64,000 nt of DNA from an uncultured Melioribacteraceae bacterium (GTDB lineage Bacteria; Bacteroidota; Ignavibacteria; Ignavibacteriales; Melioribacteraceae). Shown in pieces: positions 59,479 through 61,876 of this stretch. The stretch lies in the NCBI GenBank assembly GCA_963821715.1, contig CAWGET010000010.1, positions 47,990-111,989 on the forward strand, in the 5' to 3' direction. The notes below the pieces were generated by a model that worked only from the letters and a program-made list of their open reading frames with translations, had not been told where the DNA came from and did no database searches. The position numbers and the translations under genes were made by a program. Numbering within the stretch: the first letter of the stretch is position 1; every line of letters starts with the position of its first letter.

Positions 59479-60216
59479 TCAAATGTTTATTAGTTTCGGT
59501 TCCTGGTTCCACTCCCTACCTAAAAGTTTTCTACCGTTTGCTTTCTTATTTCTTTTAACGCCGTCTGAGCCCCAAGTTCCCCACTGTTTAAAAAAGAATG
59601 CAACGTTTTGATCTTTACATTGTTGTTGAACATTCACCGCCCATTCAGGCTGCATCGGACGCGCTTTCAATCCACTTTCCCCTCCAACAATAACCCAATG
59701 AATGTTAGTTAGATCAATATTTCCTATATCTTCAAGGAGCGGTTCTATTGAAAGAAATCTAATATTAGCATCGATCTTGCGAAGATAATCAATTCGGTTT
59801 TTATGTTTAGAGTTCTCGACTGTAACACCAAGCCAAACATTGTCGGGTACTTTTTTATTGAGGAAATATTCAGCTAAAATCTTCTCCCTTTTTGTAAGAA
59901 TTTGATATTGATGCTGCGGCGTATTCTCAATTACTTCAAAAACCTTATCAAGAAAATCAAACGGCATATCTTCGTGAAACAAATCGCTCATTGAATTAAC
60001 AAAAAATTTAGTAGGTTTCCTTGTCTTCAAAGGAATGGATAGCCGATCGGGAATTATCTTAAATGAAAACCCATCTTCATAATCTTTTTGTCCCATTGCT
60101 TTTAAGCGATTAGCCATTGTTTCGGCATAGCAGAATTTACAACCGGCTGATACCTTATCACACCCGATTGATGGATTCCAAGTTGCATCTGTCCATTCAA
60201 TTTTAGTATTTTTCAT
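59479..60216 (-). CDS. three-Cys-motif phage Gp37/Gp68-family (DUF5131) protein
   Basis: 245 aa. N-terminus [38 protein letters not shown] carries the family-typical IEWTD..WNP..GC and a C-x6-C-x2-C triad. Confidence 0.85.
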   Translation of the reverse strand: [245 protein letters not shown]

Positions 60217-60217
60217 C

Positions 60218-61328
60218 TTACGTAAGCTTATAATCTAATTTAACTTTTTCTCTAACTACCTTTTGATAAGTTACTAAAGGTGAGCGACTGTCGAAAGTTA
60301 TTAATCTTTCTTCTTTCATTCTTTTTATTTCTTCGGCTGCGTGTTTGCCAATATGTCCTTGATTTAAAGTAAACAAATAAGCGTCATCATTATTTTTTAT
60401 AGTCCCATTCTAAGAATGATTGCCTAACCTTATTTTGAAAGCTCTCTATTTTAGTTGGTATTTTACCATCAAAAAGATGCAACTGTTTCTTTGCTGAATC
60501 TTCATCTATATCAAAATTGGCGTTACCATTTATAGTGTTTGTTTTCCAAACAGTATGTAAAAATTTATCAGCGCCTCTAATATGTTTGCTTACAAAAATG
60601 AGTCCGTAAACATTATTCTTATCACTTTTCATTATAGAAAAAGGAATTAAACCATAACTTTTAATATTTGATGGAACATACTTTTCAAATTCATCACACA
60701 AAATATTATGTACTTGTTTTCTCGGAATAAGCTTTATTTTTTCTGAATCAAATTTCGGATGATATTTTTTCACTTCATCACGTTCAGCAAACCGATGCAC
60801 AAAGGATGAAGAGATAAAAAATATAAATTCAGTTGTATCTAGGTTTATTAGAAAATGAAATACTTTTTCATCAACTTCCTTAAATCCATTTTGATCTATA
60901 AAAATTAAATTGCAGCCATTATTTAATTCTTTACTGTATAATTCAAGACATTCACGAAAATTATTGGATGAAAACTTTATATCCACTAAAGGAATTAAGG
61001 GAAAGTTCTTTGACCTTTGTTTCAACATTTATTTTTAATTGATCAATTTTATTTTTATCTAGATCGTTAAGGAATAAACATACTTTCTTTGATTTACTAA
61101 TAAGATTTCTTCTATGTTTATTTATGGTTTCAATATTCTTATTGGACTACCAGGAACATCATTTTTATCATATCCGCTTCCTGCAAATAAATCAAATACT
61201 TGAATTGGTTTTAAAAATTTTCCCATTATAAAGGTTGGCAGCCATTCTTCAAAATACTTTTGAAATATTTCTAGCTTGGCAATAGTTCCTTCATCAAAAG
61301 GAGAATCAAAAATATCTTTAATGGGCAT
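60218..61328 (-). pseudogene. tcmP: three-Cys-motif partner protein TcmP, disrupted by three frameshifts
   Basis: The N-terminal ORF (61328-61122) reads PFDEGTIAKLEIFQKYFEEWLPTF...FDLFAGSGYDKNDVPGSPI, which is TcmP-like. The coding sense continues in a second frame (TINKHRRNLISKSKKVCLFLNDLDKNKIDQLKINVETKVKELSLNSFSGYKV). It then returns to the first frame (ORF 61028-60390). A third frame is open for 58 codons to the TAA at 60220-18, 1 nt before the DUF5131 ATG. Confidence 0.7.
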
Positions 61329-61393
61329 TTATATTCTCAATTATTTGAATATTTAATTACTTTATGAACATATGGTTAATTTTCACTTAGTCA

Positions 61394-61876
61394 TCAATTA
61401 AAGATCTTCTTAATCTTCTTCCTTTCTTTTTTGAATAGACCGCCGACTTTGTTTGTTATTAATTCGTGCTTCTCTTTTAGATTATTTATCGATTCTGCAT
61501 CAAATCTTTTTTCATTTATGATTTGCTTCATTTCTTTTACGGTATCTAGGATTTCATTCTGATCTGCATCTGTTTTATCGAGTAGTAATTGTAGTTTGAT
61601 AATTGCTGAATTGATCGAGTCGAACATTCTATCAATTTCTCGATTTGGTTCCAATAACTGTGAGGAGCCGTCTTGAATGCCTGGGTATTTTTCAATCCAT
61701 TCCAATGTGCTGAACAAAAACAAATGAACGCTCTTGTCTAATTTATCAAGCCAGGTGCTGTTAACTACACTTCGATAGTTAAATTCCAAGTTCTTTTTTG
61801 CAACTCTGTAGGAAATCCAGGGACCAATAACTACAGCTAGAATTGCAGCTATCGCGGTTAAAATTTGTGCTGTCAT
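61394..61876 (-). CDS. hypothetical membrane-anchored coiled-coil protein
   Basis: 160 aa. One N-terminal TM helix (ILTAIAAILAVVIGPWISY), then a helical, charged region. No family recognised. Confidence 0.5.
   Translation of the reverse strand: MTAQILTAIAAILAVVIGPWISYRVAKKNLEFNYRSVVNSTWLDKLDKSVHLFLFSTLEWIEKYPGIQDGSSQLLEPNREIDRMFDSINSAIIKLQLLLDKTDADQNEILDTVKEMKQIINEKRFDAESINNLKEKHELITNKVGGLFKKERKKIKKIFN

What the first reader, a model, noticed from the sequence alone, without database searches (positions are those of the whole stretch)
59479..61876. Three-Cys Gp37/Gp68 (DUF5131) gene paired with TcmP: an uncharacterised two-gene module in a defence-like context next to tRNA-Asp
**Seen:** a 245-aa ORF begins [26 protein letters not shown], with Cys in a C-x6-C-x2-C arrangement reminiscent of, but not identical to, the radical-SAM CxxxCxxC. 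Only 1 nt upstream ends a gene whose N-terminus (PFDEGTIAKLEIFQKYFEEWLPTF...FDLFAGSGYDKNDVPGSPI) fits the TcmP family. That N-terminus also carries a methyltransferase motif-I-like FxGxG. A 160-aa TM/coiled-coil ORF sits just upstream on the same strand.

**Established:** Gp37/Gp68 (PF07505/DUF5131) and the three-Cys-motif partner protein (TIGR04474) are annotated as a recurrent gene pair. To my knowledge no biochemical function is assigned.

**Inference:** the pair sits between a restriction-like helicase stub and the rest of an accessory island. This suggests a nucleic-acid-modifying or anti-phage module, possibly with the membrane protein as a third component.
Basis: partly seen in the sequence, partly recalled or inferred. 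Interest (0 to 1): 0.7.

Follow-up and report, generated by a model that had tools for sequence, protein, structure and literature searches.

The report
Decayed TcmP–DUF5131 gene pair remnant
The window holds an intact radical-SAM-like DUF5131 gene next to a frameshifted, dead copy of its usual partner TcmP: a decaying copy of a gene pair already listed as an untested anti-phage candidate (PADLOC PDC-M30), so the locus is ordinary although the pair's chemistry is still unknown.

Summary
Both family assignments hold. The 245-aa ORF at 59479..60216 (-) is a full-length DUF5131/Gp37-Gp68 protein (Pfam E=1.7e-106) with C19-x6-C26-x2-C29. The upstream gene is TcmP (TIGR04474).

TcmP is not an intact gene. 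Against intact 371-aa homologues (83% identity) it carries three single-base indels and reads as four frame pieces. The neighbouring restriction-type system is reduced to a deletion scar. The 160-aa membrane ORF is not a conserved third component.

The pair itself is real. In 78 of 80 genomes TcmP is followed directly by DUF5131, usually with overlapping stop and start codons. Flanking genes vary and are rich in restriction-modification genes.

Predicted folds: DUF5131 resembles spore photoproduct lyase, a radical-SAM DNA enzyme. TcmP is a class I SAM-methyltransferase fold with a C-terminal winged helix.

PADLOC already lists the pair as phage-defence candidate PDC-M30, untested. I found no biochemical study.

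Most likely the intact pair is a SAM/radical-SAM module acting on DNA in phage-host conflict. Here it survives only as a remnant, with DUF5131 possibly still functional alone. Interest is low for this locus and moderate for the family.

The parts
59479..60216 (-). Intact DUF5131 (Gp37/Gp68) gene, 245 aa. Radical-SAM-like, with C19-x6-C26-x2-C29.
   Evidence: PF07505 E=1.7e-106 over the full model. PDC-M30B 2e-120. The three Cys are invariant in 47 homologues, and the Cx6Cx2C spacing occurs in 148/154 family members examined. Model pLDDT 81; best PDB fold is spore photoproduct lyase. dN/dS 0.10 against sibling contig L001.
60218..61328 (-). TcmP (three-Cys-motif partner protein) pseudogene. Four frame pieces caused by three 1-nt indels near 61132, 60987 and 60411. 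The reconstruction is 373 aa.
   Evidence: The pieces hit TIGR04474 (62.5 and 41.1 bits) and PDC-M30A. The reconstructed protein is 83% identical over 100% of its length to intact 371-aa P0121. Indel positions come from a DNA alignment to L002 and frame coordinates.
61394..61876 (-). 160-aa ORF with an N-terminal hydrophobic helix. An independent small island gene, not part of the pair.
   Evidence: No Pfam, NCBIfam, PADLOC or PHROG hit. Only 7 homologues were found. They sit beside SIR2_2, NA37+RelA_SpoT or DUF2971 genes. It is absent from all other TcmP and DUF5131 loci.
61942..62254 (-). Deletion scar of a restriction-type system. An N-terminal stub (about 70 codons, frameshifted) of a PLD/SNF2-type helicase is joined to the last ~36 codons of an Eco57I/MmeI-type methyltransferase.
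   Evidence: tblastn places L002 MTase residues 1087-1122 of 1132 at 62040..61942 (53% identity, E=0.001). The stub aligns to residues 37-64 of a PLD-helicase (E=0.003). The intact arrangement helicase-ORF6N-MTase-TIR-TcmP-DUF5131 is seen in L002. The scar is 100% identical in L001.
62418..62493 (-). tRNA-Asp (GTC). The island lies on its 3' side, and it is an integration hot spot in the sibling strain.
   Evidence: ARAGORN and Rfam at 68.9 bits. L001 homology to the window stops at 62460 inside the tRNA, followed by integrase fragments and a second DUF5131.
59309..59336 (.). GC-rich hairpin between the convergent DUF5131 gene and the 1183-aa T9SS gene. Probable terminator and the low-coordinate edge of the remnant.
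   Evidence: Terminator-like site. Sequence identity to L001 returns to 99% from here onward.

Best explanation
The locus is the decayed remnant of a small variable (defence-type) island on the 3' side of tRNA-Asp. It contains:
- a deletion scar of a PLD-helicase/Eco57I-type methyltransferase system;
- an unrelated small membrane-protein gene;
- a TcmP pseudogene with three frameshifts;
- an intact DUF5131 gene.

In its intact form, TcmP-DUF5131 is a translationally coupled two-gene operon. TcmP has a class I SAM-methyltransferase fold. It keeps motif I (D-x-F-x-G-x-G) and a D-(P/Q)-x-G motif at the motif IV position, and long forms add a C-terminal winged-helix domain. DUF5131 is a spore-photoproduct-lyase-like radical-SAM enzyme. 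Its [4Fe-4S] loop is C-x6-C-x2-C, which is the canonical loop with three residues inserted.

Inferred mechanism: TcmP binds SAM and DNA and presents or methylates a nucleotide. DUF5131 performs 5'-deoxyadenosyl-radical chemistry on the same substrate. Together they give a DNA modification or lesion-processing activity that phages and defence islands carry as accessory cargo in phage-host conflict.

In this genome the pair cannot work as a pair. DUF5131 may still act alone, as it appears to do in many phages.

Shown: gene states, family membership, pairing and predicted folds. Inferred: substrate, chemistry and biological role.
For: Gene states: (three 1-nt indels against intact P0121/L002).

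Family membership.

Pairing: 78/80 genomic TcmP loci have DUF5131 directly downstream on the same strand. 39 overlap by exactly 4 nt and 60 lie within -4..+3 nt. No third gene is conserved.

Remnant status: MTase C-terminal remnant and helicase stub. The intact island is seen in L002.

Folds:
- The DUF5131 model's best PDB match is spore photoproduct lyase (prob 1.0, TM about 0.5), followed by anSME, LIAS and NifB.
- hhalign aligns NPxxGC-x6-C-x-F-C-Y-A with NPxxGC-x3-C-x-Y-C-Y-A of PA0069-like radical-SAM proteins (E=3e-5).
- RadicalSAM.org lists DUF5131 as a radical-SAM subgroup in the same megacluster as SPL (PMC9477430).
- The TcmP model (pLDDT 87) matches many class I SAM MTases at prob 1.0.
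- K18, F48, G50, G52, D145 and G148 are invariant across 42 diverse TcmPs.

Link to radical-SAM partners: one TcmP (L025) is followed by a canonical PA0069/rSAM_mob_pairB-like enzyme instead of DUF5131.

Context:
- Restriction-modification families are the commonest neighbours.
- The pair is PADLOC candidate PDC-M30.
- In Gordonia phage Easley the pair sits between integrase and immunity repressor.

DUF5131 alone: 175 cultured phage records carry it but few have a detectable TcmP. dN/dS is 0.10 against L001.
Against: - No experiment on either protein was found in the searchable literature, so substrate and role are inference.
- DUF5131 does not hit Pfam Radical_SAM. The fold match to SPL is moderate (TM about 0.5, E about 1e-3).
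- TcmP hits no Pfam methyltransferase family. Its motif IV in this subfamily is DQNG rather than a classical (D/N)PP(Y/F), so it may bind SAM or DNA without methylating.
- The window comes from a metagenome-type assembly, so the three indels could in principle be assembly errors.
- No integrase or att repeat bounds the remnant in the window.
Confidence: 0.75

Rival explanations
1. The pair is intact and functional in this organism, and the three frameshifts in TcmP are assembly or sequencing errors.
For: The sequence looks like a MAG contig. The sibling contig L001 carries odd 2-nt insertions that break two genes intact in the window, which shows such assemblies can contain indels. DUF5131 is under purifying selection.
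Against: There are three indels within 1.1 kb. The adjoining 3.5-kb and 1.9-kb ORFs, DUF5131 and orf160 have none. None of the three lies in a long homopolymer. The adjacent helicase/MTase system is independently destroyed by a large deletion shared with L001, so decay of this island is real. L001's different TcmP allele is also broken.
Confidence: 0.12
2. TcmP-DUF5131 is primarily a DNA-damage repair or tolerance module (SPL-like lesion reversal) rather than a phage-conflict system.
For: The best structural match is the DNA-repair enzyme spore photoproduct lyase. In seven or eight Chitinophagaceae-type loci the pair lies directly downstream of a PA0069-like radical-SAM 'DNA repair photolyase', a LigT-like 2H phosphoesterase and UmuD/UmuC.
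Against: That synteny is confined to one clade (7-8 of 80 loci). Elsewhere the neighbours are restriction-modification genes, TIR, PIN, Schlafen-type and other conflict genes. The pair is patchily distributed, mobile and embedded in defence systems (PDC-M30). It is carried in prophage immunity regions.
Confidence: 0.2
3. The pair is of phage origin and serves as a counter-defence. It modifies the element's own DNA to escape host restriction, and the cellular copies are prophage or island leftovers.
For: DUF5131 is abundant in viral contigs (at least 544 matching stretches) and in 175 cultured phage records. It often sits next to DNA methyltransferases, DnaB/DnaC and RecE/RecT. About 20 of 80 viral DUF5131 loci also encode a TcmP.
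Against: The 371-aa TcmP subfamily of the window is rare in viral contigs (3 loci) and absent from cultured phages at E<=1e-3. Most genomic loci show no phage structural genes nearby. No modified base has been reported.
Confidence: 0.3
4. The 160-aa membrane protein, TcmP and DUF5131 form a three-gene system.
For: Same strand, with short spacing in the window and in L001.
Against: No homologue of the 160-aa protein occurs in any of the other 80 genomic or 83 viral loci. Its only homologues lie next to SIR2_2, NA37+RelA_SpoT or DUF2971 genes. No third gene is conserved with the pair.
Confidence: 0.03

Closest known systems
PADLOC phage-defence candidate PDC-M30 (A = TcmP, B = DUF5131), from the 'guilt-by-embedding' screen of Payne et al., bioRxiv 10.1101/2024.01.29.577857
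   Same: Both window products match the PDC-M30 models at E=2e-120 (B) and 3.6e-59 / 6.6e-31 (A pieces). Gene order and tight coupling are the same.
   Different: The A component is a pseudogene here. PDC-M30 itself has no experimental validation in the literature I could search.
[quoted passage not shown]
   Same: This is exactly the annotated recurrent pair. The 212-aa piece scores 62.5 bits against a 53-bit cut-off, and PF07505 matches over its full length.
   Different: The window subfamily is the long form (about 371 aa) with a C-terminal GMT-wHTH domain and DQNG where short phage forms have DP(Y/F)G.
Spore photoproduct lyase and the PA0069/Rv2578c/MJ0683-like radical-SAM 'DNA repair photolyase' group
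   Same: Best structural match. The Fe-S loop is homologous by profile-profile alignment. Both fall in the same RadicalSAM.org megacluster. One TcmP is paired with a member of this group instead of DUF5131.
   Different: C-x6-C-x2-C instead of C-x3-C-x2-C. No Pfam Radical_SAM hit. Much shorter (245 aa). No known substrate.
Restriction-modification and DNA-modification defence modules (for example type I/IIG R-M; Dnd and Dpd as modification-based systems)
   Same: Occurs in the same variable islands and is often flanked by or embedded in R-M operons. Predicted SAM-dependent nucleic-acid chemistry.
   Different: No nuclease or other recognisable effector domain in the pair. No demonstrated modification.

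Membership tests
DUF5131 / Gp37-Gp68 (PF07505) | Full-length match to the family HMM above the gathering score | tested here: met
   355.6 bits against a 28.9-bit cut-off; residues 3-240 on model positions 1-243 of 243.
DUF5131 / Gp37-Gp68 (PF07505) | Conserved three-Cys motif near the N-terminus | tested here: met
   C19, C26 and C29 are invariant in alignment A2. C-x6-C-x2-C occurs in 148 of 154 family members from genomes and viral contigs.
TcmP (TIGR04474) | HMM match above the curated cut-off | tested here: met
   The 212-aa piece scores 62.5 bits (cut-off 53). The N-terminal piece scores 41.1 bits on model positions 3-62. The reconstruction is 83% identical to intact P0121.
TcmP (TIGR04474) | Encoded as one intact open reading frame | tested here: not met
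   Three 1-nt indels and four frame pieces.
TcmP (TIGR04474) | Adjacent to a three-Cys-motif (DUF5131) gene | tested here: met
   1-nt spacing in the window. 78/80 homologous loci show the same arrangement.
PADLOC PDC-M30 candidate defence system | Both components present and intact | tested here: not met
   M30B is intact and M30A is a pseudogene.
PADLOC PDC-M30 candidate defence system | Demonstrated protection against phage | not testable with these tools
   No validation was found. There is only a correlation in P. aeruginosa panels (PMC10855318) and candidate status.
Radical SAM superfamily | Canonical CxxxCxxC cluster motif and a Pfam PF04055 match | tested here: not met
   The motif is C-x6-C-x2-C. 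There is no PF04055 hit even at E<=1 in 47 members.
Radical SAM superfamily | Partial TIM-barrel fold with the Cys loop homologous to that of known members | tested here: inconclusive
   Foldseek top hits are SPL, anSME, LIAS and NifB, with prob up to 1.0 but TM only about 0.45-0.5. hhalign aligns the loop with PA0069-like rSAM at E=3e-5, prob 73%. SFLD/RadicalSAM.org lists DUF5131 as a subgroup. Fe-S binding and SAM cleavage cannot be tested here.
Class I SAM-dependent methyltransferase (for TcmP) | Rossmann-type MTase fold with the glycine-rich motif I | tested here: met
   A model with pLDDT 86.7 matches at least 27 PDB MTases at E<=1e-3 and prob 1.0. D46 is conserved in at least 90% of 42 diverse sequences, and F48, G50 and G52 are invariant.
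Class I SAM-dependent methyltransferase (for TcmP) | Sequence membership in a curated MTase family, or a classical catalytic motif IV | tested here: not met
   No Pfam MTase family is hit by any of 66 members at E<=1. Motif IV is D-Q-N-G here and D-P-(Y/F)-G in short forms.
tRNA-linked integrative genomic island | Integrase and direct repeat of the tRNA 3' end bounding the island | tested here: not met
   No integrase homologue was found in the window and no att-like repeat in 59200-62620. The sibling contig has integrase fragments in an additional island at the same tRNA.

The most novel reading that the evidence does not exclude
TcmP-DUF5131 may be a still-uncharacterised two-enzyme system in which a methyltransferase-fold, winged-helix DNA binder and an SPL-like radical-SAM enzyme with an expanded C-x6-C-x2-C cluster loop install, or remove, a non-canonical DNA modification used in phage defence or counter-defence. 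DUF5131 would be able to work without TcmP, as suggested by solo copies in phages and by its conservation here after TcmP loss. The window's copy would not show this itself, but intact orthologues such as L002/L004 or Gordonia phage Easley gp38-gp39 could.
Probability: 0.3. Interest if true: 0.65.

Novelty: new member of a known kind. Interest (0 to 1): 0.3.

Why it matters
For this genome it matters little. The locus is a decaying remnant that documents turnover of defence-type cargo at a tRNA-Asp hot spot.

For the family the open question is worthwhile. About 2,900 TcmP clusters (representatives at 50% identity) were found, and DUF5131 homologues are more numerous (a capped search returned 8,000). 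The pair couples a SAM-methyltransferase fold to an SPL-like radical-SAM enzyme. It travels with restriction-modification genes and sits in prophage immunity regions, yet it has no assigned chemistry. Solving it could reveal a new DNA modification or a new radical-based immune or anti-immune mechanism.

The analysis here points to better experimental starting points than this window:
- the intact Ignavibacteria island (L002/L004);
- the cultured Gordonia phage pair gp38-gp39.

Tried and rejected
- Sequence searches of both proteins against PDB chains gave nothing meaningful.
- Pfam at relaxed thresholds gave no Radical_SAM hit for DUF5131 and no MTase family for TcmP.
- PHROGs has a family for DUF5131 (phrog_2045, unknown function) but none for TcmP.
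- Literature searches for DUF5131, PF07505, TIGR04474, TcmP, PF22560 and Gp37/Gp68 returned only annotation-level mentions. The meaning of 'GMT' in the Pfam GMT-wHTH name could not be established.
- Looking up the window's own DUF5131 protein in the contig index failed, so the source organism is known only by similarity to Ignavibacteria-type MAGs.
- No att-type direct repeat of the tRNA 3' end was found at the far edge of the remnant. The promoter scan was no better than shuffles.
- tblastn with the window-type TcmP found no cultured phage. Divergent TcmPs were detected only with other queries or HMMs, so counts of TcmP in phages are lower bounds.
- I considered programmed frameshifting for TcmP and rejected it. 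It would need three shifts in both directions, none at a slippery run, and homologues are single ORFs.
- I considered using L001 as independent proof of pseudogenisation. I down-weighted it because L001 has unusual 2-nt insertions in otherwise conserved genes.
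Full report
**Observation**

All features below lie on the minus strand.
- The ORF at 59479..60216 encodes 245 aa beginning [31 protein letters not shown], with Cys at 19, 26 and 29, i.e. C-x6-C-x2-C.
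- It matches Pfam DUF5131 (PF07505) over the whole model at E=1.7e-106.
- It matches NCBIfam 'radical SAM mobile pair protein A' more weakly.
- It matches PHROG 2045, of unknown function.
- It matches PADLOC model PDC-M30B at 2e-120.
- Upstream pieces match TIGR04474 (TcmP) and PADLOC PDC-M30A.
- The ORF that ends 1 nt before the DUF5131 start is real (60218..60376). It is only the C-terminal 52-aa piece, with a weak GMT-wHTH match.

**TcmP is a pseudogene**

- Three-frame translation shows four consecutive frame pieces. Joined together they give a 373-aa protein.
- That protein is 83% identical over its full length to intact 371-aa proteins such as P0121.
- A DNA alignment to the intact gene in L002 places three single-base indels: -1 near 61132, +1 near 60987 and +1 near 60411. 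None lies in a long homopolymer.
- The neighbouring 1183-aa and 639-aa ORFs, DUF5131 and the 160-aa ORF are all uninterrupted.
- I therefore read this as true decay, not programmed frameshifting. Assembly error is unlikely, with a residual probability of about 0.12.

**The surroundings are also decayed**

- Between the 160-aa ORF and tRNA-Asp (62418..62493) lies the N-terminal ~70 codons of a PLD/SNF2-type helicase, itself frameshifted.
- This stub runs into the last ~36 codons of an Eco57I/MmeI-type methyltransferase (62040..61942).
- In L002/L004, an Ignavibacteriaceae MAG, the intact arrangement is PLD-SNF2 helicase, ORF6N, Eco57I-type MTase, TIR protein, TcmP, DUF5131 and then AAA/S8 protease.
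- The window therefore keeps a deletion scar of such a system.

**Comparison with the sibling contig L001**

| Segment | Identity to window |
|---|---|
| Chromosomal flanks | 99.0% |
| Deletion scar | 100% |
| 160-aa ORF | 99.2% |
| DUF5131 | 95.7% (dN/dS 0.10) |
| TcmP C-terminal part | 87.6% |
| TcmP N-terminal and middle part | 68% |

- The TcmP segment has been replaced by another allele in L001, and that allele is also broken.
- L001 additionally has integrase fragments and a second DUF5131. They start beyond a break point inside the tRNA. The tRNA is therefore a recurrent integration site.
- L001 contains odd 2-nt insertions in conserved genes, so I give its pseudogene state little weight.
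- No integrase or att repeat bounds the remnant in the window.

**The 160-aa ORF**

- It has an N-terminal hydrophobic helix and no hit in any family library.
- Only seven homologues exist in the large protein collection.
- They lie next to SIR2_2, NA37+RelA_SpoT or DUF2971 genes in other islands.
- None occurs in the 163 other TcmP or DUF5131 loci I collected.
- It is an independent small island gene, not a third component.

**Is the pair real across genomes?**

- Yes. A scan of one genome per species with a TcmP alignment gave 80 loci from Bacteroidota, Ignavibacteria, Acidobacteriota, Spirochaetota, Planctomycetota, Cyanobacteria and others.
- In 78 of them DUF5131 lies directly downstream on the same strand. 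39 have a 4-nt stop/start overlap and 60 lie within -4..+3 nt.
- One exception (L025) carries a canonical PA0069/rSAM_mob_pairB-like radical-SAM gene in that position.
- No other gene family is shared by more than 8 loci.
- Among the two nearest genes on each side, the commonest Pfam families are mostly restriction-modification and nuclease types. They are Radical_SAM, Eco57I, Methylase_S, N6_Mtase, ResIII, HNH, PD-(D/E)XK, Mrr, C5 DNA methylase, PIN and Schlafen/AlbA. They are mixed with housekeeping genes.
- A Chitinophagaceae-type clade instead shows a PA0069-like radical-SAM gene, a LigT-like gene and umuDC upstream.
- An exhaustive profile search found 2,916 TcmP cluster representatives at E<=1e-3.

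**Phage context**

- DUF5131 is common in viral contigs, with at least 544 matching stretches, and in 175 cultured phage records.
- There it typically lies near DNA methyltransferases, DnaB/DnaC, RecE/RecT and HD hydrolases.
- About 20 of 80 viral DUF5131 loci also encode a TcmP: 11 long forms and 9 short ~296-aa forms with DP(Y/F)G.
- The window-type TcmP is rare in viral contigs (3 loci) and undetected in cultured phages.
- In Gordonia phage Easley, DUF5131 (gp38) is convergent with a 371-aa 'methyltransferase' (gp39) that is a TcmP. The two lie between integrase and immunity repressor.

**Structure-based inference**

- The DUF5131 model (pLDDT 81) is closest to spore photoproduct lyase. Other radical-SAM enzymes follow.
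- Profile-profile alignment places its NPxxGC-x6-C-x-F-CYA on the NPxxGC-x3-C-x-Y-CYA loop of PA0069-like enzymes.
- RadicalSAM.org lists DUF5131 as a radical-SAM subgroup in the SPL megacluster (PMC9477430).
- The TcmP model (pLDDT 87) is a class I SAM-methyltransferase fold plus a C-terminal winged helix.
- Across 42 diverse members the invariant residues are K18, F48, G50 and G52 (motif I), L98, and D145 and G148 (D-(P/Q)-x-G).
- Neither protein has a solved relative by sequence.

**Known status**

- The pair is defined as such by TIGR04474.
- It is PADLOC v2 phage-defence candidate PDC-M30, from a 'guilt-by-embedding' screen, and is untested.
- One survey reports PDC-M30 in 32 of 100 P. 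aeruginosa strains, 69% of them phage-resistant. This is a correlation only.
- A TcmP gene is co-expressed with the Hna defence gene in S. meliloti.
- I found no biochemical work.

**Verdict**

A nucleic-acid-modifying or conflict module is plausible and already proposed. The third component and the 'rest of an island' are not supported.
- The most likely mechanism for intact pairs is SAM plus radical-SAM chemistry on DNA. Defence, counter-defence and repair roles remain unresolved.
- This locus is an ordinary, decayed member of a known candidate family.

Noticed in passing
window 61942-62254 (-): Deletion scar. The N-terminal stub of a PLD/SNF2 helicase is joined to the last ~36 codons of an Eco57I/MmeI-type methyltransferase. 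It is 100% identical in sibling contig L001, so the deletion predates their split.
   Followed up: yes
window 61394-61876 (-); L167, L168, L170: The 160-aa N-terminal-TM protein belongs to a 7-member family. Its genes sit directly beside different effector-like genes: an overlapping SIR2_2, NA37+RelA_SpoT, or DUF2971. It may be a small accessory gene of defence islands with changing partners.
   Followed up: partly
window 62528-62600: A scrambled partial copy of the tRNA-Asp 5' half lies just upstream of the real tRNA-Asp. It consists of an acceptor/D-arm segment, an anticodon-arm-like insert, then a D-loop segment. Its origin is unexplained.
   Followed up: no
L001 1-1930 (sibling contig), break at window 62460: The sibling strain carries an additional element inserted in tRNA-Asp, with tyrosine-integrase fragments and a second, 76%-identical DUF5131 gene. 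Islands stack at this tRNA.
   Followed up: partly
L040, L044, L052, L063, L067, L079, L083: In a Chitinophagaceae-type clade, TcmP-DUF5131 lies directly downstream of a PA0069-like radical-SAM gene, a LigT-like 2H phosphoesterase and UmuD/UmuC. This is a DNA-damage-type neighbourhood.
   Followed up: partly
L025 10001-11928: Here TcmP is followed by a canonical radical-SAM gene (rSAM_mob_pairB/PA0069-like) instead of DUF5131. This suggests TcmP can partner with different SPL-group radical-SAM enzymes.
   Followed up: partly
L171 (Gordonia phage Easley, NC_070814.1 29182-31049): gp38 (DUF5131) and gp39 (annotated 'methyltransferase', in fact a TcmP) are convergent with a 4-nt overlap. They sit between the integrase and the immunity repressor. 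This is a cultured system suitable for experiments.
   Followed up: partly
window 60420-61328 vs L001: Identity to the sibling contig falls from 99% in the flanks to 68% in the N-terminal two-thirds of TcmP. This indicates allelic replacement by recombination inside the island.
   Followed up: yes
window 55713-59264 (+): The 1183-aa T9SS-sorted protein (peptidase C10-like, Laminin_G_3, Por_Secre_tail in the L001 annotation) contains an internal ~900-nt duplication: 56836-57739 vs 58057-58959, about 78% identity by cross-hits.
   Followed up: no
L013 10001-11120; L052 11121-11853: Other genomes also show split copies: TcmP in two ORFs in L013 and DUF5131 in two ORFs in L052. These could be further pseudogenes or long-read assembly errors.
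   Followed up: no
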